Assembly: GCA_041666325.1 (NCBI GenBank)
Contig: JBAYHC010000001.1
Coordinates: 137,708 to 201,707, forward strand
Length of the DNA: 64,000 bases
From: Patescibacteria group bacterium
GTDB taxonomy: Bacteria; Patescibacteriota; UBA1384; XYA2-FULL-43-10; 1-14-0-10-43-13
Reading direction: 5' to 3'
Part shown: piece by piece, positions 43,584 through 60,791 of the stretch
Layout of the letters: every line of letters starts with the position of its first letter
Position numbering within the stretch: the first letter of the stretch is position 1
Notes under the pieces: model-generated
What the model saw: only the letters and a program-made list of their open reading frames with translations
Databases searched by the model: none
Told to the model about the DNA's origin: nothing
Made by a program: the position numbers and the translations under genes

Positions 43584-45632
43584 TTAGATCAAGCCCTCGA
43601 GTGCGGCGATCTGATCCCTAATCTCGGCCGCACGCTCGAATTCCAGCCGTTCTGCTGCTTCGCGCATGAGTCCTTCGAGCTCGCGAACGACTTTCCTCTT
43701 CTCCTGTGCTGGCAACCCCTTAAAAGAGCGGTTTATTTCTAAGAGCTCTTTTTCTTCCTTCTCAATTTGAGGCTTAAGGGTTTTGGTAATGGTCTGGGGT
43801 GTAACTCCATGTTCCTTGTTGTATCTTTCCTGTAATTTGCGCCTCTCATTGGTCTCATTTATGGCCACCCTCATCGATTCAGTCATCAAATCAGCATACA
43901 TAATTACTTTACCTTCGGAGTGACGGGCCGCGCGACCGATCGTCTGGACGAGCGAGGTGCGGCTGCGCAAGAAACCCTCCTTGTCGGCATCCAGAATCGC
44001 CACAAGCGACACCTCCGGCAGATCGAGTCCCTCGCGCAGCAGATTGATGCCAACCAAAACATCATATTTACCCAAGCGGAGCGAATGCAAAATTTCACTT
44101 CGTTCCAGAGTATCAACGTCAGAGTGAATATAAGAAACCTTAATAAAATTTTCTGTTAGATATTCTGTCAGCTCCTCTGCCATCCTTTTGGTCAGGGTCG
44201 TCACGAGGACACGTTGGCTCCTCTCCACGCGCAACCTTATCTCGCTAATTAGGTCCTTGACCTGACCGGCCGTTTTCCTAACCTCTATCCCGGGATCAAG
44301 CAAGCCGGTTGGACGTATAAATTGACGCACGATACCCTCGCCGAGAACTGATAACGGATTTTCGATTGTGGTGCGACGAGCGTCGGCAACATCCTTCGTC
44401 TCTCGTTCGTCGCTAGGCTTGGTATCGCTCATGCGTAACTCATAGTTACCAGGAGTAGCGGAAACATATATCGTCTGACCTCTCTTCTTGTCAAACTCAT
44501 CAAAACGGAGTGGGCGATTATCAAAAGCAGAGGGCAGACGAAAACCAAAATCGATTAGTTTTTTCTTGCGAGAATAGTCACCAGCATGCATGCCGCCGAT
44601 CTGGGGAATAGTCATGTGTGACTCATCAACAACCAAGAGATAATCCTCGGGAAAGTAATCAAGCAGAGTTGTTGGCGGCTCGCCGGGATTTCTGCGGTCG
44701 AAGTATCGAGAGTAGTTTTCTATACCTGAGCATATTCCCGTCGTCTCGATCATCTCCAGATCATAATTAGTTCGTTGTTCCAACCTCTGCGCCTCTAGCA
44801 ATTTCCCCTCAGAGCGAAGCTCACTCAATCTATTCTCAAGATCGGCTCTTATCTCGCCAAGTGCCACCTTCACTACGCTCTCTGGAGTAATAAAGTGCTT
44901 GGCTGGAAAAACTTCAAACTCAGAAAGCCTACCGATAATCTCGCCGCTTGGCCAAGCAACTTCAGATATTTTCTCGACGACATCACCAAAGAACTCGACC
45001 CTGACCAGATTCTCCGAGTATGCAGGGAAAAGATCGAGAATATCCCCCTTAAGACGAAATGTACCTCGCTTCACCTCCAGGTCGTTGCGCTCGAACTGCT
45101 GTTTGACAAGGCTTGCCAACATATCATCCCGCGGAATAGCCTCCCCGACACGAAAAGTAAAATTAGCCGACTGATAAAACTCAGGTGAACCGATGCCGTA
45201 GATGCAAGAGACGGATGCGACAATAATTACATCGCGCCGAGTCAGAAGCGCGTGAGTCGCGGCGTGGCGCAATCGATCTATTTCATCATTAATAGAGGAA
45301 TCCTTCTCAATATAGGTGTCGGTCGATGGAACATACGCCTCCGGCTGGTAATAGTCATAGTACGAAACGAAATAATGAACTGCATTATCGGGAAATACTT
45401 CCCGAAACTCGTCCGCCAGCTGCGCCGCCAGAGTCTTGTTGTGTGCAATCACAAGGGTGGGTCTTTGCACATTGTTAACGACATTAGCAACCGTAAAAGT
45501 CTTGCCACTGCCGGTCACACCCCACAGGGTTTGATGTTTATTGCCATGAATAAGATTAGCCGTTAGCGCCCTAATCGCCTCCGGCTGATCACCCTTGGGA
45601 GTAAAGTTTGATTTTAATTGAAATTTAGTCAT
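43584..45632 (-). CDS. uvrB: Excinuclease ABC subunit B
   Basis: GVTGSGKTFTVANVV Walker A, helicase motifs and a C-terminal UVR domain. Confidence 0.95.
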   Translation of the reverse strand: MTKFQLKSNFTPKGDQPEAIRALTANLIHGNKHQTLWGVTGSGKTFTVANVVNNVQRPTLVIAHNKTLAAQLADEFREVFPDNAVHYFVSYYDYYQPEAYVPSTDTYIEKDSSINDEIDRLRHAATHALLTRRDVIIVASVSCIYGIGSPEFYQSANFTFRVGEAIPRDDMLASLVKQQFERNDLEVKRGTFRLKGDILDLFPAYSENLVRVEFFGDVVEKISEVAWPSGEIIGRLSEFEVFPAKHFITPESVVKVALGEIRADLENRLSELRSEGKLLEAQRLEQRTNYDLEMIETTGICSGIENYSRYFDRRNPGEPPTTLLDYFPEDYLLVVDESHMTIPQIGGMHAGDYSRKKKLIDFGFRLPSAFDNRPLRFDEFDKKRGQTIYVSATPGNYELRMSDTKPSDERETKDVADARRTTIENPLSVLGEGIVRQFIRPTGLLDPGIEVRKTAGQVKDLISEIRLRVERSQRVLVTTLTKRMAEELTEYLTENFIKVSYIHSDVDTLERSEILHSLRLGKYDVLVGINLLREGLDLPEVSLVAILDADKEGFLRSRTSLVQTIGRAARHSEGKVIMYADLMTESMRVAINETNERRKLQERYNKEHGVTPQTITKTLKPQIEKEEKELLEINRSFKGLPAQEKRKVVRELEGLMREAAERLEFERAAEIRDQIAALEGLI

Positions 45633-45877
45633 GGGCTGAAACTTTATTGGGAAAAGCAGTAATGAAGTGAGGCGATAATGCGGTAAGCTGCAAGGACGGT
45701 TACCATCCCCACGACATTACAGCCATACTGCCCTACTGCTTTATTGCCAAATTTTGCCTTTTCATTTTGAATATCTATTATATGTGGATAACTCCGTTGC
45801 GTCAACGGTTAGCGCCATGATATATCTTGACTAAGTCTGGTACCGACCTTGAATGCCTACGTGTACGAGCCCGCCCG

Positions 45878-45905
45878 GAGGAGGGGGCTCGTTTTTGTAC
45901 TTGAG
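45878..45905 (+). terminator. Hairpin GAGCCC-N11-GGGCTC plus GTTTTT; terminator or attenuator-like
   Basis: Read directly. Confidence 0.4.
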
Positions 45906-45947
45906 AACCTTGACGTGCATCTCGCCACTCATCCATTGACACATAAG

Positions 45948-45980
45948 CCACGGCCATGTTATAAAAGTAGTTATATCTCA
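45948..45980 (+). promoter_or_regulatory. Sigma70-like promoter TTGACA-18-TATAAA at the head of a GC-rich island
   Basis: Read directly. Confidence 0.45.
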
Positions 45981-46126
45981 CTACGCGGGGCCTGCCACAT
46001 GGCCCCCAAGGAGGACACAACCTTGCGGAAATTCGGACAGATCAAGCCGAGTTCGAACGCGGCGCAACGGTGCCACTGGGCCCGCCCCTACTTCAAGCCT
46101 CTACGTGAACATGTGGGGGCAACCCA

Positions 46127-46340
46127 CATGGAATGTGGTGTGATGAGCCACACCGAAGAGTCGGTCAAGACAGTCGCCGCCGAGCGCGGCAGCTTCCGGT
46201 TGAAGGAGAACACCTCCATCGACTGGGAGAGAGTCATGGCCCACGCAGCCGCCAGTCACGCAAGACACAGGGTGGCCAGTGTCCGTATCGCAGAAACACT
46301 GGAAGAGCCGCTCGCCCGAGTGGCATCCGCCGGCACATAG
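46127..46340 (+). CDS. Possible small protein (70 aa) on a GC-rich island, followed by a terminator at 46385-46412
   Basis: MECGVMSHTEESVKTVAAERGSFRLKENTSIDWERVMAHAAASHARHRVASVRIAETLEEPLARVASAGT. The overlapping opposite-strand ORF looks like an antisense artefact. Confidence 0.3.
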
Positions 46341-46384
46341 CCGGCACCGCAAGTTGCTGATTGCCACCTCCCCGGTGGCACCCA

Positions 46385-46412
46385 GAGCCGACGCCCGTCG
46401 GCTCGTTTTTAT
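46385..46412 (+). terminator. Rho-independent terminator GAGCCGACG-CC-CGTCGGCTC plus TTTTTATT
   Basis: Read directly. Confidence 0.6.
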
Positions 46413-46429
46413 TCTCCCCCTTCTACTTT

Positions 46430-47146
46430 CTACCTAAATAGATCTGGTCTTTTTTTCTTTGTCCTCTCTTTGGCTTGCTCAAGCCGCCACTTTGCAATCT
46501 CAGAATGATTGCCTGACTTTAGTACTTCTGGCACGAGTGATCCCTTGTATTCATCGGGGCGAGTATAAACCGGATACTCCAGAAGCAGGTGACCATCTTC
46601 ATCCCTCAAATTAAAACTCTCATCTGAAAATGATTCATCCTTACCCAAAACACCCGACACAAGACGCGATGTGGCATCAACAATCGCCATTGCCGCAATT
46701 TCTCCTCCCGTAAGAACGAAGTCGCCCAGCGAAATCTCCTCATCAACCAGGTTCTGTCTGATCCGTTCATCAAAACCCTCATAGTGTCCACAAACCAAGA
46801 TGATATCAGACATCTTTGATAACTCCTCTGCCTTTTTCTGATTGAACGGTTGCCCCTGTGGCGTCATCAAAACAGTTCTTCGCAGTTCGTAATCAGGAGT
46901 TCTCACATCACCTTTGATCGCGTTTAGAGCGCTATCCATGACGTCGACTTTTAGCACCATGCCTGGACCACCGCCATAAGGCGTATCATCAACAGTTTTA
47001 TGTTTATCAAGCGCAAAATCACGCAGATTGTAGAGTTTAATTGCGATTGAATCGTTTTGCTGCGCACGCTTCAAAATGCTCTCAGAGAAGGGACTCTGAA
47101 ACATTTCGGGAAAAAGCGTTAAGATGTGGAAAGTAATCTTTGCCAT
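46430..47146 (-). CDS. trmD: tRNA (guanine37-N1)-methyltransferase
   Basis: ITFHILTLFPEMF...DDTPYGGGPGMVLK (SPOUT knot). The ORF-track start at 47179 is probably 11 codons too long. Confidence 0.9.
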   Translation of the reverse strand: MAKITFHILTLFPEMFQSPFSESILKRAQQNDSIAIKLYNLRDFALDKHKTVDDTPYGGGPGMVLKVDVMDSALNAIKGDVRTPDYELRRTVLMTPQGQPFNQKKAEELSKMSDIILVCGHYEGFDERIRQNLVDEEISLGDFVLTGGEIAAMAIVDATSRLVSGVLGKDESFSDESFNLRDEDGHLLLEYPVYTRPDEYKGSLVPEVLKSGNHSEIAKWRLEQAKERTKKKRPDLFR

Positions 47147-47241
47147 ATATTTTGACCTCAGACACAAAGAAATCGCCATGCATCAATTCATTAGAATAGA
47201 GCTGTGGCGACTCCTTTACTTTTAGTTTGTTGTTTAGCGAA

Positions 47242-48057: not shown

Positions 48058-49383
48058 TTAATCTCTAAATGTCAACTCTGTACGATAGCCTCTTTTGAAA
48101 TCTTCATAGCTCATTTCTTTTTTGCCTTCGGGCTTGACTACATCAATGACCAGTCCAGCTGCTTCAGCCATGTGAGCAGACAGTATTTGCACTCTTTTGT
48201 CCTTAACTATGGTATAGACCTTGGGCCAATCATGGAACGCCCTGATCATCCTCTCAACATCTCGAGCCGAAGTATTGGCATTGACACAACCGTCATCCTT
48301 CTTGATCATCTTGGTATATGTAGCTTTCTTTTCGTTCTGCATGGTCGGCTTAAGCTCGCCGGCAATATAGTATGGCAACGAATCAAGGAGTAATGTCGCG
48401 CCTATATCGGAAAGATAGTCCTTAAGAATCGTTGACGTTTCACCACCCGATAGCTCGACTGCAACTTGGGAGATGATATCGCCCGCATCCAGTTCTTCGC
48501 TTGCCAGCATTAGTGATACCCCTGCCAATTTATCACCATTCAAAATTGTATACTGCACTGGGGCGGGCCCGCGATATCGGGGCAAAAGAGAGGGGTGAAT
48601 ATTAATAACTCCATATTTAGGCAAGCGCAGCAATTCAGGTGGAATTATCTGGCCAAAGTCAGCCATGATGATAATCTCCGGTTTCCATTTCCTGATTTCC
48701 TGGACAATGTTCCCTTCACGGATCTTCTCGGTGCGAATGATCGGCAAGTGTAAATTATGAGCAATCTCGAATATTGCGTTTGTTTCTCTTTCCTCGCCTC
48801 GAATATGAGCCTTGGCATCCCCGGTAACAACGCCGACAATATCGTATTGCTGATCAGTAATAAGCGACTGTAGGGCTGGGGCCCCAAGCGTTCCAGTGCC
48901 TATAAAAACAGTTCTAACTTCCTTAAGATGGTCAACGATCAATGTTGCGTTCAGGTGGTCTGTTTCGTGCTGTAGAACGCGAGCGTGAACACCTTCTACC
49001 TCAAGCGTGATATTCTTACCGTATCGATCCTGTCCTACAACTGTTGCTTTGTCAGGGCGTTTAACCAATATTTCCCTACCAGGAACAGACAGACACCCCT
49101 CAACCATCGCTCTCTGACGACTCGAGTTCTTAACAACTTTTGGATTGCAGACTACTGTGAGTGGAAAACCAGTCAATACAGAATCTTTCTCTGGGATAAA
49201 CTCGGCTACGAAAACGCTCTTCGAGACCCCGACTTGGGGTGCCGCCAAACCAACACCATCGTTGGCTCGCATAGTCTCAATCATATTGTCTATCAGCTGC
49301 TGAAGATCAAAATCAAAATCAGTCACAACCGCAGCTGGCTGGCGCAATATCGGATCGCCTTCTTTTTTGATCGGTAATATCAT
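48058..49383 (-). CDS. def-fmt: Fused peptide deformylase / methionyl-tRNA formyltransferase (def-fmt in a single 441-aa ORF)
   Basis: N-terminal Def motifs GVGLAAPQVG, EGCLSVPG and HETDHL. This is followed in frame by Fmt motifs VFIGTGTLGAPAL and HPSLLPRYRGPAPVQ. Confidence 0.85.
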   Translation of the reverse strand: MILPIKKEGDPILRQPAAVVTDFDFDLQQLIDNMIETMRANDGVGLAAPQVGVSKSVFVAEFIPEKDSVLTGFPLTVVCNPKVVKNSSRQRAMVEGCLSVPGREILVKRPDKATVVGQDRYGKNITLEVEGVHARVLQHETDHLNATLIVDHLKEVRTVFIGTGTLGAPALQSLITDQQYDIVGVVTGDAKAHIRGEERETNAIFEIAHNLHLPIIRTEKIREGNIVQEIRKWKPEIIIMADFGQIIPPELLRLPKYGVINIHPSLLPRYRGPAPVQYTILNGDKLAGVSLMLASEELDAGDIISQVAVELSGGETSTILKDYLSDIGATLLLDSLPYYIAGELKPTMQNEKKATYTKMIKKDDGCVNANTSARDVERMIRAFHDWPKVYTIVKDKRVQILSAHMAEAAGLVIDVVKPEGKKEMSYEDFKRGYRTELTFRD

Positions 49384-49444
49384 AAATTAGATTAATTGTA
49401 CTCGATTTTGCCTCAAAATTCAAAGGCCAATCAGAACAAAAAAA

Positions 49445-49485
49445 CACTACCCGCTGGCTCTCACAATATGGGTAGTGTTCGGACA
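49445..49485 (-). terminator. Rho-independent terminator overlapping the RT stop codon (CACTACCC...GGGTAGTG plus TTTTTTTG)
   Basis: Read on the minus strand. It isolates the RT from the downstream def-fmt gene. Confidence 0.7.
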
Positions 49486-50438
49486 TCTATCAAAACCGGA
49501 TGATCAACCGGATTTCGGGATAGCTTTCGCCCTGGTGATTCGGACTGAATCAGGAAGAAGCGCGCCCGGTACTGGTCGTAAAGGCTGATCAATTCTTTTT
49601 CGAGACGGCTTTGGGGTCTTCTTTTCCCCGTGAAGGCAAAGAAGGTACTCATTGAGCCGGAGATCACATTGTGTTTAGGGTGAGATTCCCCCAGCGCCTG
49701 CCGCAACATGCAACAGAGCTCTTTAACCTTCGAGCGCTTAAGAAAGGTCGTTCCATCAGGGTGAATACCAATACCATTAATGAATACGTCACCCTTCTTG
49801 AGATCTAACACCTGGCATTTGTGACAACTCAGTCGAAAACCCACTGAGCGAATGGCTGCTGCCAAAGTCGCTCTCTTTCTCCTACCAACAGGGAACCTGG
49901 AGGAGAAGAGCAAATCATCGGCGAATCGAGTGTAGTGAAGACGGTATTTCTGGCACAGCGTCCGGATAGCCGGGTCGAGATGAACCTTCAAATACAACTC
50001 AAACCAATAGTTTGAGGCAGGGGCCCCAACTACCAGTCCTCCATTTCTGTGCAGGCAATAACGCTGAAGAAAAGTCAAAACCTCTTCTTGCTTGCCCGTA
50101 TACTGCGGGTCAACATCACAAATAGTCTCTGCCAATTTTGTGCCGTCAATACTCTCAAAGGCGCTGGCGATGTCCATCGAGACATAGTAACGGTTCCCGA
50201 GACGAAGATGTGTTCGCAGCAGCGCTGGCGCCGATGACATCTTGACTGAACCGAAACGAACTGCCCAATACGGCCGCCGCCACAGTCTGCGAATGTACCT
50301 CTTGATCTCCGCATGAACTCGACGCATCGTATCATTCGGCTCACCGATCGTTCGCCATTTCTTTCGTCCACTGATCGGATTGACCGCCAGTTTACGAAAG
50401 AAGCGGAAGGTTGGTTCCTCCCGCTGTGTTTTCGGCAT
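49461..50438 (-). CDS. Stand-alone reverse transcriptase (325 aa; retron, DGR or DRT-like, with no maturase or other fused domain)
   Basis: RT motifs are present: KKWRTIGEPNDTMRRVHAEIKRYI (motif 1), YYVSMDIASAFESI (motif 2), GLVVGAPASNYWFELYL (motifs 3-4), RFADDLLF (the YxDD catalytic box) and VFINGIGI (motifs 6-7). Confidence 0.9.
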   Translation of the reverse strand: MPKTQREEPTFRFFRKLAVNPISGRKKWRTIGEPNDTMRRVHAEIKRYIRRLWRRPYWAVRFGSVKMSSAPALLRTHLRLGNRYYVSMDIASAFESIDGTKLAETICDVDPQYTGKQEEVLTFLQRYCLHRNGGLVVGAPASNYWFELYLKVHLDPAIRTLCQKYRLHYTRFADDLLFSSRFPVGRRKRATLAAAIRSVGFRLSCHKCQVLDLKKGDVFINGIGIHPDGTTFLKRSKVKELCCMLRQALGESHPKHNVISGSMSTFFAFTGKRRPQSRLEKELISLYDQYRARFFLIQSESPGRKLSRNPVDHPVLIDVRTLPIL

Positions 50439-50705
50439 CGTGCCGCCCCTTTCTTTCAGCGAACCCGGAGGGGTGGTTTTTTGGAGCCTCCATAGGCTAC
50501 CTCGAACTCTCTAGCTGAGTTTGCGCTTCTCTGAGAAAAAGCACACAGGAAAAAGATTCCTGCGTCTCGGTAAGCTCGTGTCCGAGCCTCCCTCCCTCTG
50601 CCTACGCAAAGGGTTGTGCTTTGGCGCTGTAAGGAACTCCAAAACCTTCCCCTCCAGGTTGCAGCCTGGCCCACACATGAACCAGGCGCCAAGCCCGCTT
50701 ACAGA
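50439..50705 (-). ncRNA. Candidate structured ncRNA of about 265 nt transcribed with the RT (retron msr-msd-like, DRT ncRNA-like, or DGR template region)
   Basis: A dedicated promoter lies just upstream. The region is GC-rich relative to the backbone and abuts the RT ATG. No credible protein is encoded, yet three overlapping 64-78-codon stop-free frames are present. Confidence 0.45.
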
Positions 50706-50708
50706 CGC

Positions 50709-50736
50709 ACTATAGCACATGATGACGACTATTCAA
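50709..50736 (-). promoter_or_regulatory. Sigma70-like promoter (TTGAAT-16-TATAGT) driving the ncRNA-RT unit
   Basis: Read on the minus strand, just after the galE stop. Confidence 0.5.
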
Positions 50737-50749
50737 GGGCAAAAATCTT

Positions 50750-51937
50750 TTAAGCAGAAGCAACTGCAGGATTTGGACCGGCCGCATATCCCTCAGGGTG
50801 TTTCGAGTGCCAATCCCAGGCCGTTTTGGCCATATTGCTGAGATCATGGCTGGCTTTCCAGCCCAGAACTGTTCCAGCCCGGGAGGGGTCACAATATGAG
50901 ACTGCGGGATCCCCTGAACGGCGAGAGACAACTTTGTAATTCACCTTTTTTCCACTCGCGCTCTCGGCTTCTCTAATAACGTCAAAAACAGAATAACCCT
51001 TCCCGTTCCCCAGATTGAAGACATTGCTTGCATTGTTTTGCGTTAAATACCTAAGAGCAGCGATGTGACCAGTAGCGAGATCAAGCGGATGAATATAATC
51101 ACGAATGCAAGTACCATCTTCAGTCGGGTAATCGTCACCGAAGACAGAGAGTTCCGCGGTTCTGCCAAGAATATTCCAAAAACACAAAGTCATCAGAGTC
51201 GTGGGCTTGGGTTTGTCTTCTCCTATCTCACCATTTTCGCCCGCACCGCAAACATTGAAATATCGCAGTGCGACAGATTTGACGCCATAGAGATTATCAT
51301 ACTTTTTCATCAATATTTCGTCCAAGAGCTTAGTCAAGCCATAGACAGATGCCGGAATACGAAGTTTTGTTATCTCTTCATCGGTCAGTGCCAGTTCTTC
51401 ACGGTCTATGACCAGTTCGCGATAATAATCAATAATTTTCTCAAAGAATCTCTCGCCTGACACATCTTTTCCATCCCACTTGCCGGGAAGAAGTGCTGAT
51501 TTTTCCGGCTTGAATGTGGCTTGATAATCCTCCCTAAGAGGAAAATCGCTCTCATGCAGCGGATCGCCATACGTAGAGGCAGTTGAAGACTTGATGACAT
51601 ATTTACAACCGTGCTTTACCATCACGTCAAGCAAACCAATGAAATTCTCTACATTGTTTTTCATGTAGCGAAGAGGATCCTCCATTGATTCGCCCACAGC
51701 CAGATAAGCAGCAAAATCAATAACAGCGACAGGCTTGTATTGCTGAAAAACTTTACTCACTCCGGAGGAGTCTGCAATATTAATGACTTCAAGAACTGCT
51801 CGCGTATCTATTGCTTCCCGGTGACCATTTTCAAGGCTATCGATAACGACAACCTTGTACCCCTCGTCCAATAATTGCCTTACAGTAAAGCCACCAATAT
51901 ATCCAGCACCACCAGTAACAAGAATTGTTTGAGACAT
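50750..51937 (-). CDS. galE: UDP-glucose 4-epimerase-like NAD-dependent epimerase with an insertion of about 50 aa
   Basis: TGGAGYIGGF Rossmann motif, a YGxxK catalytic region and the C-terminal YPTEDGTCIRDYIH block. An extra segment lies between the substrate-binding Ser and the Tyr motifs. Confidence 0.8.
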   Translation of the reverse strand: MSQTILVTGGAGYIGGFTVRQLLDEGYKVVVIDSLENGHREAIDTRAVLEVINIADSSGVSKVFQQYKPVAVIDFAAYLAVGESMEDPLRYMKNNVENFIGLLDVMVKHGCKYVIKSSTASTYGDPLHESDFPLREDYQATFKPEKSALLPGKWDGKDVSGERFFEKIIDYYRELVIDREELALTDEEITKLRIPASVYGLTKLLDEILMKKYDNLYGVKSVALRYFNVCGAGENGEIGEDKPKPTTLMTLCFWNILGRTAELSVFGDDYPTEDGTCIRDYIHPLDLATGHIAALRYLTQNNASNVFNLGNGKGYSVFDVIREAESASGKKVNYKVVSRRSGDPAVSYCDPSRAGTVLGWKASHDLSNMAKTAWDWHSKHPEGYAAGPNPAVASA

Positions 51938-52014
51938 AGTACTCCTTAAAGTATTACTTACTTCCTAGAATACAAAAAGGGCTGGCAAATTGCCAGCACC
52001 AACGAATCTATCAA

Positions 52015-52289
52015 TTAACACAGATAGGCACGGTCAGGGCCAACCGGCAGGAAAACCCTTTTTTGACGATGGGATTCGACAAAAACATGGGTATAACCAC
52101 ACCCAGGACAACATGCATCCCAACCAAAAACTATGTCTGGGGATGTGGTCGAAGGATCAACATTTTGTCTTGATGTTGGATCGTTCGGCTCAATTTCGAA
52201 CACCCTCCCACACCTCGGACAGCTAACATTTTCTCCCCCAGGAGGGAATCGATCATACCGAGGCGGCACTCTACTCTCCAGCCGACTCA
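52015..52289 (-). CDS. Hypothetical small Cys-rich (zinc-ribbon-like) protein of about 91 aa; its start overlaps the upstream gene stop (translational coupling)
   Basis: MSRLESRVPPRYDRFPPGGENVSCPRCGRVFEIEPND...WDACCPGCGYTHVF. Confidence 0.35.
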
Positions 52290-52610
52290 TATTTGTTGTA
52301 CCACTCGCCAGACAGGTACCGGACCAACCCATCTGGCTTCTCGGACTCTCTTCGAATCCAGTCCGCCAGCTCAATGTCTCCAGGCATGCTGCCAGCAGGA
52401 CAACCGCAGCTAGACGGGTTAAGAGCAGCCGAATGCGGGCCACCGCCACTAACGCTCATCATAGATGGCGCCACAACATTTGCCAGAAAAACAGTACCGC
52501 CAACATTTATCTCCCTCAGATACCTTTGTGCATAAACCTGAAAAGCAACGGGGGTCTGAGGAAGATCCTCTTTGGTAACAATGATCACGCTAGCACAACA
52601 TGACTTCATG
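52271..52610 (-). CDS. Hypothetical Cys-rich protein (about 112 aa) with a strong RBS (AGGGAG)
   Basis: MKSCCASVIIVTKEDLPQTPVAFQVYAQRYL...GGGPHSAALNPSSCGCPAGSMPGDIELADW. No confident family. Confidence 0.45.
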
Positions 52611-52700
52611 GTACATCTCCCTCTTGCCATGAATTGGCGCAATCAAGTTAACACAAAAAAACAAAATATACAATTTCCACAAACGTAAAATAGTACCAAA

Positions 52701-60302: not shown

Positions 60303-60791
60303 CCCCCAAAGCAGACAATAAGCCGAGTTCTGTACCCGCCGCGAAGCGGCGGGACAAAAAAACTTTATGAACTAAAGAACGAAAGAACAGGTGGGAAATC
60401 AACTTTTTAACTATTAACGCCCTGGTTGTTCTTTGGTTTTTTAGTTTTTCGGTTCTTCGGTCCCGATGCTTCGCATCGGGGGATGGCAATCTATCTACGC
60501 GTGAAGACCTCGCATATCTTCCGAGCAGGAATAATGATATGTTCGGCCCACTTCACTTTCACCTAACGAGGCTTGCCACAGACGTACATCGCTGCACGAA
60601 CGCGTGTGCTCTTACCACACGATTTCACCCTTACCGGTCGTGCATAGCACGACTTAGGCGGTTTTTTTTCTGTTGCGCTTTTCTTAAACTTCACAGCCTA
60701 CTTACTCTCGTAAGCGTTATTGCTCTATGGTGCCCGGACTTTCCTCCATCCCGATAACTCGGGACAGTAGCCATCTAATCTACTTCGGGGG
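60303..60791 (-). ncRNA. rnpB: RNase P RNA (bacterial type; about 490 nt with an expanded central/3' region)
   Basis: The minus strand carries GGAGGAAAGTCCGGGCACCATAGAGCA (P4 5' strand), GCAACAGAAAAAAAACCGCC, GGTAAGGGTGAAA...GTGGTAAGAGCACAC and ACAGAACTCGGCTTAT (P4 3' strand). The P1 helix pairs CCCCCGAAGUAG at the 5' end with CUGCUUUGGGGG at the 3' end. The UUCG-capped stem CCCGCCGC-UUCG-GCGGCGGG sits just before the P4 3' strand. Confidence 0.85.

What the first reader, a model, noticed from the sequence alone, without database searches (positions are those of the whole stretch)
49423..50740. Self-contained reverse transcriptase plus upstream structured ncRNA module (retron-like or DRT-like) inserted between galE and def-fmt
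A 325-aa RT with clear motifs 1-7 (YYVSMDIASAFESI, GLVVGAPASNYWFELYL, RFADDLLF, VFINGIGI) has no fused effector, maturase or DNA-binding domain. It is not within a group II intron.

Immediately upstream on the same strand is about 265 nt of GC-enriched non-coding sequence. That sequence is driven by its own TTGAAT-16-TATAGT promoter, and the unit ends in a rho-independent terminator overlapping the RT stop codon. The unit is therefore ncRNA-RT-terminator, wedged between two housekeeping genes.

The non-coding stretch is unusually depleted of stop codons. Three overlapping 64-78-codon ORFs on both strands appear in the ORF track (50456-50692 minus, 50511-50720 minus, 50521-50715 plus), although none looks like a real protein. 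That feature recalls the never-ending-ORF template of DRT2-type defence RTs, and the RT-plus-ncRNA-only architecture matches DRT2- or retron-like systems.

The RT carries 'SN' where DGR RTs typically have 'SQ'. I could not find a variable repeat nearby, so a DGR with a remote VR remains possible. Whatever the family, an apparently autonomous RT-ncRNA module in a reduced, likely epibiotic genome would be notable.
Basis: partly seen in the sequence, partly recalled or inferred. Interest (0 to 1): 0.85.

Follow-up and report, generated by a model that had tools for sequence, protein, structure and literature searches.

The report
Effector-less retron-like RT with new ncRNA
A small reverse transcriptase of the retron lineage sits next to a previously uncatalogued, strongly structured non-coding RNA; the pair recurs in many ultra-small (CPR/Patescibacteria) bacteria with no partner protein, so it is probably a new two-part DNA-writing system whose product is unknown.

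Summary
The core observation holds. Window 49438-50736 (minus strand) holds a promoter-like site, a ~250-nt structured RNA, a 325-aa reverse transcriptase (RT) and a terminator-like hairpin, between a galE-like gene and def-fmt.

The RT is retron-like by sequence profile, by fold, and by the conserved H of NAxxH and G of VTG. It reaches no curated retron, DRT, DGR or group II threshold.

It belongs to a family of at least 100 clusters, almost all in Patescibacteria, under purifying selection (dN/dS about 0.13).

In 24 of 39 genome loci and 34 of 73 metagenome loci, a covariance model finds the same RNA core next to the RT:
- Every match of 23 bits or more is on the RT strand.
- The RNA lies upstream or downstream of the RT, in one to three copies.

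The RNA has a long closing stem, two covarying hairpins, a conserved pyrimidine tract (about CUUUUUCUCU) and a conserved CUCAGCGG/CCGCUGA pairing. Rfam 15 has no match.

No neighbouring protein family is conserved.

Verdict: a real, self-contained RT-ncRNA module and a new variant of the retron/DRT kind. Its mechanism is inferred, not shown.

The parts
50709..50736 (-). sigma-70-like promoter TTGAAT-16-(TG)TATAGT in front of the RNA; transcription start expected near 50702
   Evidence: Consensus scan, 9 of 12 with TG. Pattern only, function not shown.
50456..50702 (-). Whole non-coding RNA unit, about 250 nt, from the putative start to the conserved CGCUGA
   Evidence: MFE z = -4.6 to -5.0. 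The core matches the family covariance models at 32.4 and 29.5 bits, E 2e-7 and 5e-6. No Rfam match.
50664..50687 (-). P0: 10-bp leader hairpin (GCCUGGUUCA-UGUG-UGGGCCAGGC) 5' of the closing stem
   Evidence: MFE and centroid folds. Leader hairpins are also seen in L014 and L004. Not tested for covariation.
50641..50660 (-). P1 5' strand (AACCUGGAGGGGAAGGUUUU) of the long closing stem
   Evidence: Inverted repeat I1, 20 nt, 80% complementary. In the P1 cross-locus complementarity test the window scores 11.5 of 12, and no non-self flank does as well.
50594..50613 (-). H1: 8-bp hairpin CCCUUUGC-GUAG-GCAGAGGG, the first conserved scaffold hairpin
   Evidence: Hairpin scan. Covariance-model alignments A7 and A10: H1 is 96% paired, and 8-9 of 9 pairs show compensatory changes.
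50572..50589 (-). H2: 7-bp hairpin with GNRA-type loop (AGGCUCG-GACA-CGAGCUU), the second scaffold hairpin
   Evidence: H2 is 85% paired in the independent set, and 9 of 10 pairs show compensatory changes.
50533..50556 (-). Conserved pyrimidine tract(s): UCUUUUUCCU (50556-50547) and CUUUUUCUC (50541-50533)
   Evidence: A pyrimidine run sits at a fixed place just 3' of H2. Mean length is 10.2 nt against 5.1 in control windows (P 1.7e-5). A run of 9 nt or more is present in 28 of 35 independent units.
50514..50519 (-). Internal CUCAGC, the window's version of the family motif CUCAGCGG; complementary to the 3' GCUGA
   Evidence: Family analysis with compensatory variants. In the window only 5 bp can form, so support here is weak.
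50462..50481 (-). P1 3' strand (AAAAACCACCCCUCCGGGUU)
50456..50461 (-). Conserved CGCUGA directly 3' of P1, about 18 nt before the RT start codon
   Evidence: The motif lies directly after P1 in the 23 units anchored on it, with variants such as CGUUGA, UGUUGA, CGCUGC and AGCUGA. A motif of this kind is found in 23 of 35 independent units.
49461..50438 (-). Reverse transcriptase, 325 aa, retron lineage (motifs YYVSMDIASAF, GAPASNYW, RFADDLLF, VFINGIGI)
   Evidence: Sequence-profile and fold evidence.
49438..49479 (-). Intrinsic-terminator-like hairpin (10-bp stem, 17-nt loop holding the TGA stop) plus T7 run
   Evidence: Inverted repeat I22 and the sequence itself. Not listed by the scanner because of the loop length.

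Best explanation
Shown: the locus is a self-contained two-component module. It comprises one structured non-coding RNA gene and one 325-aa RT of the retron lineage. The pair belongs to a family found almost only in Patescibacteria (CPR). In that family the RT is accompanied on the same strand by one to three copies of this RNA, and by no conserved protein.

Inferred mechanism:
1. The RT binds the conserved H1-H2 hairpins of its RNA, which play the role of a retron msr.
2. The long stem P1 plays the role of the retron a1/a2 stem and sets where synthesis starts.
3. The RT copies part of the variable segment between the pyrimidine tract and the P1 3' strand into a short DNA.
4. No effector gene exists, so the RT-RNA-DNA complex or the DNA itself would be the active agent. 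The most likely role is as an accessory, possibly antiviral, function. This parallels the two-component DRT2 and DRT9 systems in logic but not in ancestry.

Not shown: priming chemistry, template limits, the DNA product and the biological role.
For: RT identity:
- The window RT matches many retron-type RT models about equally, at 60-65 bits.
- The closest solved sequences are retron RTs.
- The family profile scores 109 bits against Ec86 and Ec83 and 89 against Ec78, but only 40 against group II RT and 40 against DRT2.
- The Foldseek top hits are retron RTs at TM about 0.60-0.63.
- The family keeps NVxRH and ING, with H77 and G222 invariant. These correspond to NAXXH and VTG, whose H and G are the most conserved residues in retron RTs (PMC7736814).

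Family:
- An exhaustive search found 1064 relatives, 104 of them below 1e-30.
- 38 close loci lie in species-representative genomes, nearly all labelled CPR. A further 73 lie in metagenomes.
- dN/dS is 0.12-0.14. The RNA region is 84-87% identical where synonymous sites differ by 45%.

RNA:
- Every covariance-model match of 23 bits or more (28 matches) is on the RT strand within about 1 kb of the RT.
- All 37 matches in an independent metagenome set are on the RT strand.
- H1/H2 are 88-90% paired against 45-55% for slid controls, and 18 of 19 pairs show compensatory changes.
- P1 is complementary within a unit but not across loci: 10.4 against 7.8 of 12. It also covaries between tandem copies.
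- The pyrimidine tract is conserved.

No partner protein:
- No protein family within 2.5 kb occurs in more than 5 of 43 loci.
- No Pfam family occurs in more than 3 of 140 flanking ORFs.
- In the window there is no room for another gene.
Against: - There is no experimental or transcript evidence of any kind.
- No curated retron model is passed. St85 scores 70 bits against a cut-off of 235.
- The variable region shows no single long msd-like hairpin.
- The conserved CUCAGCGG/CCGCUGA pairing and the pyrimidine tract have no counterpart in retrons and are not explained by a retron-type model.
- RNA copies downstream of the RT, and in tandem, are not typical of retrons.
- The RNA core was not detected in about a third of strong RT loci. 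Some of those contigs are truncated.
- The window's own RNA is a divergent member. It scores 29-32 bits and has CUCAGCU rather than CUCAGCGG. No close relative exists: the nearest RT is 39% identical. Its structure therefore rests on the family model.
- Neighbouring genes are housekeeping genes, not defence islands.
Confidence: 0.55

Rival explanations
1. Repeat-addition or homopolymer synthesis. The fixed pyrimidine tract (about CUUUUUCUCU) just after the H1-H2 scaffold is a short template that is copied again and again. This would work as in DRT9 (poly-U tract giving poly-dA) or DRT10 (telomerase-like repeats). The product would be purine-rich repetitive DNA rather than a retron-type single copy.
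For: - The tract is the most position-fixed single-stranded feature of the RNA.
- UUUU occurs there in 15 of 28 units, against 14% of control windows.
- DRT9 is likewise RT plus ncRNA only, and uses a universally conserved uridine tract as template (PMC12483538).
- DRT10 makes tandem repeats from a short ncRNA template (PMC12632851).
Against: - The RT belongs to the retron lineage, not UG/Abi.
- It is about 300 aa and lacks the C-terminal domain of class 2 UG RTs.
- In the window's minimum-energy fold both tracts are partly base-paired.
- No product data exist.
Confidence: 0.15
2. Selfish or formerly mobile retroelement. The RT and its RNA are a unit that inserts between genes, and the extra RNA copies are footprints of retro-insertion.
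For: - Genomic contexts differ between lineages. They include an insertion between rplB and rpsS inside the S10 operon.
- RNA copies can flank the RT on both sides, as in L014.
- One locus has a tyrosine recombinase next to it, L004.
- In the window, the RT 3' end weakly resembles the def 5' end (P 0.02).
Against: - There is one RT per locus and no RT fragments.
- The position is kept between related genomes: L005/L007, L035/L037 and L032/L033.
- Only one weak relative is found in 2.9 million viral contigs.
- There is no endonuclease, integrase or maturase domain.
- The 13-nt repeat flanking the window module is at chance level: 14 comparable pairs occur in the region.
Confidence: 0.1
3. DRT2-type gene synthesis. 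Rolling-circle reverse transcription of the stem-enclosed RNA makes concatemeric cDNA that encodes a never-ending ORF.
For: - The architecture is RT plus ncRNA only.
- A long stem encloses the RNA.
- DRT2 RT is among the fold matches, at rank 9.
- One sense frame is open across the window's P1-enclosed region.
Against: - The Drt2 model scores 17 bits against a cut-off of 390.
- Open-frame length is ordinary in the window and in 27 homologous units. The best frame changes strand and phase between loci.
- No direct repeat at the two ends of the enclosed region was noticed when the units were read by eye. This was not tested systematically.
Confidence: 0.04
4. Diversity-generating retroelement whose variable repeat lies outside the window, or a degenerate group II intron.
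For: DGRs are the commonest RT type in CPR (PMC8632793). Beyond that, this is only an RT with an adjacent non-coding region.
Against: - No repeat of the region and no A-biased near-repeat occurs in 64 kb.
- There is no Avd-like gene.
- The RT profile is closest to retrons.
- The group II RT/maturase model scores 20 bits against a cut-off of 300.
- No intron RNA domains are found in Rfam.
- The adjacent RNA is a conserved folded scaffold, not a copy of a coding segment.
Confidence: 0.02
5. The RNA is only a cis-acting 5' leader that controls RT translation, and the RT acts on other cellular or foreign RNAs.
For: In the window the RNA ends about 18 nt before the start codon, and CGCUGA lies next to the ribosome-binding site.
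Against: The same RNA lies downstream of the RT in 13 of 35 independent units. It also occurs in tandem copies up to about 1 kb upstream. A leader would not behave this way.
Confidence: 0.05

Closest known systems
Retrons, especially stand-alone (msr-msd)-RT cassettes and orphan retrons such as the Ec107-like group (Mestre et al. 2020, PMC7736814)
   Same: - The RT is about 300 aa and consists only of fingers, palm and thumb.
- The best sequence-profile and fold matches are retron RTs.
- The conserved H of region X and G of region Y are present.
- A structured RNA lies on the same strand.
- The RNA is closed by a long-range stem, with conserved hairpins 5' and a variable part 3', like a1-msr-msd-a2.
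- Effector-less retron cassettes are on record.
   Different: - No curated retron RT threshold or type model is reached. The family is equidistant from many types at roughly 100-115 bits, inferred from best E-values of 1e-27 to 1e-33.
- The motifs are NVxRH and ING rather than NAxxH and VTG.
- There is no long msd hairpin.
- It has a fixed pyrimidine tract and a CUCAGCGG/CCGCUGA pairing.
- The RNA can be downstream of the RT or present in two or three copies.
- The whole family, not single orphans, lacks an effector.
- The host range is CPR.
DRT2 (UG2) RT-ncRNA system (10.1101/2024.05.08.593200)
   Same: - Two components only, RT plus ncRNA.
- A stem encloses the candidate template.
- The DNA product would be expected to act as the effector.
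   Different: - It belongs to a different RT lineage.
- There is no conserved never-ending ORF.
- The RT is about 100 aa shorter.
DRT9 (UG28) and DRT10 (UG17) RT-ncRNA systems (PMC12483538, PMC12632851)
   Same: - A structured ncRNA scaffold with a conserved U-rich tract at a fixed place.
- DRT9 is also RT plus ncRNA only.
   Different: - The RT is not of the UG/Abi lineage.
- No evidence exists for protein priming or oligomerisation.
- The tract is a mixed C/U tract, not a pure U run.
UG38, a small UG/Abi class 2 group reported from Parcubacteria and Nealsonbacteria (PMC9226505)
   Same: A solo RT found in CPR genomes, of unknown function.
   Different: Identity could not be tested because no UG38 sequences or model were available here. 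The present family matches retron models best and is too short for the class 2 UG architecture (own knowledge).

Membership tests
Retron | RT clusters with retron RTs or passes a curated retron RT model | tested here: inconclusive
   Retron RTs are the best matches by profile and fold. However, NCBIfam retron_St85_RT scores 69.8 bits against a cut-off of 235, and no PADLOC type stands out.
Retron | Region X NAXXH (H most conserved) and region Y VTG (G most conserved) (PMC7736814) | tested here: inconclusive
   The family consensus is NVxRH and ING, with H77 and G222 invariant. The window has LLRTH and ING. The most conserved residues are kept, but the full motifs are not.
Retron | ncRNA on the same strand, closed by a1/a2 inverted repeats | tested here: met
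   The P1 stem is present in the window and is supported across loci. Its equivalence to a1/a2 is an analogy, not a demonstration.
Retron | msd folding into a long hairpin (10-50 bp) that becomes msDNA | tested here: not met
   The segment between H2 and the P1 3' strand folds into several short hairpins in the window and in homologues.
Retron | Branching G and 2'-5' linked msDNA | not testable with these tools
   This needs biochemistry. No conserved G next to P1 could be singled out.
Retron | Associated effector gene (tripartite system) | tested here: not met
   There is no conserved neighbour and no room in the window. Orphan cassettes are, however, known (PMC7736814).
DRT2 | UG2-type RT | tested here: not met
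   NF041746 Drt2 scores 17.2 bits against a cut-off of 390. The family profile scores 40 bits against the DRT2 chain.
DRT2 | Template that reads as a stop-free repeat (neo) | tested here: not met
DGR | Template repeat / variable repeat pair with A-specific changes | tested here: not met
   None is present in the 64-kb window. The rest of the genome was not available.
Group II intron | Intron RNA domains and an RT with a maturase domain | tested here: not met
   There are no Rfam matches at E up to 1. TIGR04416 scores 20 bits against a cut-off of 300. The protein ends after the thumb.
DRT9/DRT10 (UG/Abi class 2) | UG28 or UG17 RT | tested here: not met
   No UG/Abi model is among the best PADLOC matches. 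DRT9 chains rank below retron RTs in the fold search.
DRT9/DRT10 (UG/Abi class 2) | Conserved short U-rich template in the ncRNA | tested here: inconclusive
   A conserved pyrimidine tract exists. Its use as a template is untested.

The most novel reading that the evidence does not exclude
This would be a new class of two-component DNA-writing system that arose from the retron lineage. A minimal retron-type RT would use a new scaffold RNA (P1, H1-H2, pyrimidine tract, CUCAGCGG/CCGCUGA switch) to make a DNA product by a mechanism unlike msDNA synthesis. One possibility is repeat addition on the pyrimidine tract. Loci with two or three diverged RNA copies would program one enzyme with alternative templates. 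It would be the first such system specific to ultra-small episymbiotic bacteria.
Probability: 0.2. Interest if true: 0.85.

Novelty: new variant of a known kind. Interest (0 to 1): 0.68.

Why it matters
- Every recently solved RT-ncRNA system (DRT2, DRT9, DRT10, DRT3) has revealed a new way of making DNA. This family offers another compact enzyme-RNA pair of about 1.3 kb with clear, testable RNA elements.
- It comes from the retron branch, where an effector protein is the rule. A whole family without one asks what the reverse-transcribed product does by itself.
- It is almost confined to CPR bacteria, whose defence and nucleic-acid biology is barely known.
- The RNA is a well-supported structured RNA family absent from Rfam.
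- Small retron-type RTs with defined RNA scaffolds are also of practical interest for in-cell DNA production.

Tried and rejected
1. DRT2 'neo' logic. Stop-codon and open-frame statistics in the window and in 27 homologous units show no conserved frame.
2. DGR. A BLAST and an A-masked 50-mer scan of the region against the whole window found nothing.
3. Group II intron or any known RNA. Rfam with permissive thresholds on the window region and on four of the best homologous loci gave no match.
4. Conserved partner gene. All-against-all BLASTP of ORFs of 70 aa or more within 2.5 kb, plus a Pfam scan of 140 flanking ORFs, found nothing recurrent.
5. Phage-borne element. Only one weak relative was found in IMG/VR.
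6. Target-site duplication. The 13-nt repeat flanking the module is at chance level, and the similarity of the RT 3' end to the def 5' end is marginal (P 0.02).
7. Pairing between the RNA's P1 5' strand and the RT coding region. It is striking in the window (13.5 of 14) but absent in 20 other units, so it is not a family feature.
8. Duplex-energy z-scores for P1 over long flanks were uninformative. They were replaced by the anchored cross-locus test.
9. The word-indexed homologue search with the single protein found only the protein itself. The exhaustive search was needed.
10. Looking up family accessions in the supplements of the retron and UG/Abi censuses failed, because no supplementary files are held.
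Full report
**What is in the window**

On the minus strand, a galE-like epimerase gene ends at 50750 and a def-fmt fusion gene starts at 49383. Between them lie 1366 nt. They hold one ORF of 325 codons (50438-49461), a 311-nt spacer before it and a 77-nt spacer after it.

The ORF is a reverse transcriptase (RT). Pfam RVT_1 matches at E 1.6e-13, and the catalytic aspartates are intact. The AlphaFold model has mean pLDDT 89.4. It shows fingers, palm and thumb, with nothing beyond them except a disordered 25-residue tail.

The upstream spacer is richer in G+C than its surroundings (0.54 against about 0.46). As RNA it folds much better than shuffled versions: z = -5.0, or -4.6 when started at the putative transcription start.

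A TTGAAT-16-TATAGT site with an extended -10 TG lies at 50736-50709.

A perfect 10-bp stem follows the ORF, and its 17-nt loop contains the stop codon. Seven T residues come next. The same unit, 100% identical, is seen in three other assemblies of the same organism, a Patescibacteria MAG.

The 'depletion of stop codons' is marginal. The spacer has 18 stops against 25 +/- 4 in shuffles, and P is 0.06 with dinucleotide shuffles. The longest open stretch of 80 codons is matched by 35-43% of shuffles.

In 27 homologous RNA units the longest open frame lies on either strand and in any phase. It is no longer than chance. There is therefore no DRT2-like coding signal.

**Which RT it is**

- The window RT hits many PADLOC retron-type RT models about equally, at 60-65 bits (I-B, III-A, VI, II-A).
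- NCBIfam retron_St85_RT scores 70 bits against a cut-off of 235. Drt3a scores 30, group II RT/maturase 20 and Drt2 17.
- The closest solved sequences are retron RTs.
- A profile of 50 family members scores 109 bits against Ec86 and Ec83, 89 against Ec78 and 83 against Ec67. It scores only 40 against a group II RT and 40 against DRT2.
- Foldseek puts retron RTs first (Eco7, Ec86, I-A, Ec78, Ec83) at TM 0.60-0.63 over the whole length.
- The family consensus has NVxRH between motifs 2 and 3 and ING in motif 7, with the H and the G invariant. Retron RTs are characterised by NAXXH and VTG, with H and G the most conserved residues (PMC7736814).

The RT therefore belongs to the retron/retron-like lineage. 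It falls outside every typed group that I could test.

**The family**

The word-indexed search found only the protein itself. The exhaustive profile search found 1064 relatives, 104 of them below E 1e-30. All are about 300 aa, and the nearest is 39% identical.

A pattern-plus-tblastn scan of one genome per species returned 38 close loci. Nearly all carry CPR labels: Saccharibacteria, Paceibacterota, Berkel-, Wildermuth-, Harrison- and Zambryskibacteria, and Parcubacteria. A metagenome scan returned 73 more loci. The viral collection returned one weak relative.

Pairs of related loci give dN/dS of 0.12-0.14. Each locus has exactly one RT-like ORF.

**No protein partner**

- Called genes around five members are housekeeping genes. 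Examples are infC-rpmI-rplT, the S10 operon (where the RT sits between rplB and rpsS) and ATP synthase.
- Clustering all ORFs of 70 aa or more within 2.5 kb of 43 loci gives no family present in more than five loci.
- A Pfam scan of 140 flanking ORFs gives no family in more than three. Those that recur are translation factors, tRNA synthetases, SMC and ABC proteins.
- In the window there is physically no room for another gene.

**The RNA**

Most loci have several hundred bases without a long ORF next to the RT. Primary sequence is not conserved between distant loci, but folds showed a recurring plan.

*Core hairpins.* The core is two adjacent hairpins.
- H1 has 8-10 bp and a tetraloop, with consensus CCAUnAC-nCAy-GUnGUGG.
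- H2 has 7-10 bp, usually with a GNRA or UUCG loop.

*Covariance-model searches.* A model built from 13 units, and a second built from 27, were searched over all loci.
- All 28 matches of 23 bits or more lie on the RT strand within about 1 kb of the RT, in 24 of 39 loci.
- The window matches at 50569-50639 with 32 bits and at 50562-50639 with 29.5 bits.
- In the independent metagenome loci, all 37 matches are on the RT strand, in 34 loci.
- Of the 50 strong RT loci in that set, 33 have a match. Many contigs there are truncated.

*Base-pair support for H1 and H2.* Pairs are formed in 88% and 90% of cells, against 45-55% when the partner is slid. In both alignments 18 of 19 pairs show compensatory changes.

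Two caveats apply. The seed hairpins were picked by a hairpin scan, and the later alignments are fitted to the model. The independent set and the strand and position specificity do not suffer from the first problem.

*Elements around the core.* Four further elements recur.

1. A long closing stem, P1.
   - The 12 nt just 5' of a conserved CGCUGA motif are complementary to a segment 20-50 nt upstream of the core in the same unit. The score is 10.4 of 12, against 7.8 +/- 0.8 for the flanks of other loci.
   - The window scores 11.5, and no non-self flank does as well.
   - P1 changes in a compensatory way between tandem copies in L004.
2. A pyrimidine tract, about CUUUUUCUCU, roughly 10 nt after H2.
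   - The longest pyrimidine run there averages 10.2 nt, against 5.1 in control windows (P 1.7e-5).
   - A run of 9 nt or more is present in 28 of 35 independent units.
3. A variable region of short hairpins.
4. An internal CUCAGCGG lying 37-70 nt upstream of the CCGCUGA that follows P1.
   - Matched variants occur: UCAACAU/AUGUUGA, CAACGA/UCGUUG, CUCAGCU/AGCUGAG, plus G-U variants.
   - Because the 3' partner abuts P1, this pairing is either a pseudoknot or an alternative to the inner part of P1.

*Further observations.*
- Rfam 15 has no match for the window RNA or for the best-scoring homologues.
- The RNA region is 84-87% identical in locus pairs whose synonymous sites differ by 45%. It is therefore under constraint.
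- The RNA is not tied to the RT start. It lies downstream of the RT in 13 of 35 independent units. It occurs in two or three diverged tandem copies in some loci: three in L004, two in L010 and L015, one on each side in L014, and two downstream in L020.

**How it probably works**

The general plan resembles a retron RNA: a closing stem, conserved hairpins in the 5' half and a variable 3' half. The enzyme is of the retron lineage. My best reading has three steps.
- The RT recognises H1-H2.
- P1 sets the start of synthesis.
- Part of the variable segment is copied into a small DNA.

The absence of any partner protein means the RNP or the DNA is itself the active agent. In logic this is closer to DRT2 and DRT9 than to tripartite retrons.

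A serious rival is that the fixed pyrimidine tract is a short template used repeatedly, as the uridine tract is in DRT9 (PMC12483538) or the repeat template in DRT10 (PMC12632851). I cannot separate these two readings without product data.

A mobile-element reading has some support from varied insertion sites. It is weakened by single copy number, conserved position between related genomes and the lack of any integration domain.

**Known or new**

Effector-less 'stand-alone (msr-msd)-RT cassettes' and orphan retrons are on record (PMC7736814), as is a small CPR RT group, UG38 (PMC9226505). I found no paper in the library that describes this family or its RNA. I could not check census tables.

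I rate it a new variant of a known kind. It is a CPR-restricted, effector-less branch of retron-like RTs with a new scaffold RNA.

**Limits**

- All function is inferred.
- The window's RNA is a divergent member without close relatives.
- About a third of strong RT loci gave no RNA match.
- P1 and the pseudoknot were tested with my own scripts rather than a full covariance model.
- Organism labels are those of the records.

Noticed in passing
window 45633-46429 (between uvrB 43584-45632 and trmD 46430-47179, minus strand): An ~800-nt stretch with G+C of 0.60-0.65 in a ~0.46 genome. It has no ORF with a credible product. As RNA on the minus strand it folds with z = -4.1 (20 shuffles). The only Rfam match is a sub-threshold sRNA hit. 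It may be a large unknown structured RNA.
   Followed up: partly
window 51938-52700 (between the galE-like gene and priA): A second gene-poor, G+C-rich stretch (up to 0.575), with fold z = -2.75. It holds a 144-aa ORF (52015-52449, minus) with CxxC pairs and a sub-threshold zinc-ribbon match (E 1.2e-4). Other annotators call hypothetical genes of 105-112 aa here.
   Followed up: partly
window 49894-49908 versus 50646-50660: The RNA's P1 5' strand (AACCUGGAGGGGAAG) is 14 of 15 complementary to the RT codons just after FADD (CUUCUCCUCCAGGUU). None of 200 shuffles did as well. The same test on 20 other units found nothing comparable, so it is either specific to this lineage or chance.
   Followed up: yes
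window 49418-49430 and 50731-50743; also 49334-49353 versus 49453-49472: Imperfect 13-nt direct repeats (TTKGCCYTTGAAT, each including a -35-like box) flank the module. In addition, the RT 3' end and terminator weakly resemble the start of def (local alignment P 0.02). These could be insertion footprints, but 14 comparable 13-mer pairs occur by chance in the region.
   Followed up: partly
window 48058-49383: Peptide deformylase and methionyl-tRNA formyltransferase are fused in one 441-aa ORF (Pep_deformylase 3-156, Formyl_trans_N/C 157-408).
   Followed up: no
window 60304-60786 (minus): Bacterial RNase P class A RNA, 145 bits, spans 483 nt for a 367-position model, so it carries sizeable insertions. 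No tRNA gene was found in the whole 64 kb.
   Followed up: no
L035 3486-3962 and L037 3510-3986: Two MAGs labelled as different CPR phyla (Saccharibacteria and Harrisonbacteria) share 87% nucleotide identity over 476 nt of the RNA region and the same flanking genes. Either one label is wrong or the block was transferred.
   Followed up: no
L004 4011-4089, 4457-4535, 4798-4876; L010 3453-3531, 3806-3884; L014 3787-3865 and 5099-5177: Several loci carry two or three diverged copies of the whole RNA unit for one RT. They share P1, the YUGAGG motif, CUCAGCGG and CCGCUGA, but differ elsewhere. What multiple RNAs per enzyme mean is unexplained.
   Followed up: partly
L038-L047 (for example L042 1450-1822, L047 3300-3871): A more distant RT subfamily (family HMM 160-290 bits) also has G+C-enriched gene-free DNA upstream. 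It gives no match to the RNA model and may have a different partner RNA.
   Followed up: no
L017 (contig CAYNGY010000001.1): One close family member lies on a 477-kb contig labelled 'uncultured Gammaproteobacteria'. It is the only non-CPR label among the close loci. This could be a binning or labelling error, or a real transfer.
   Followed up: no
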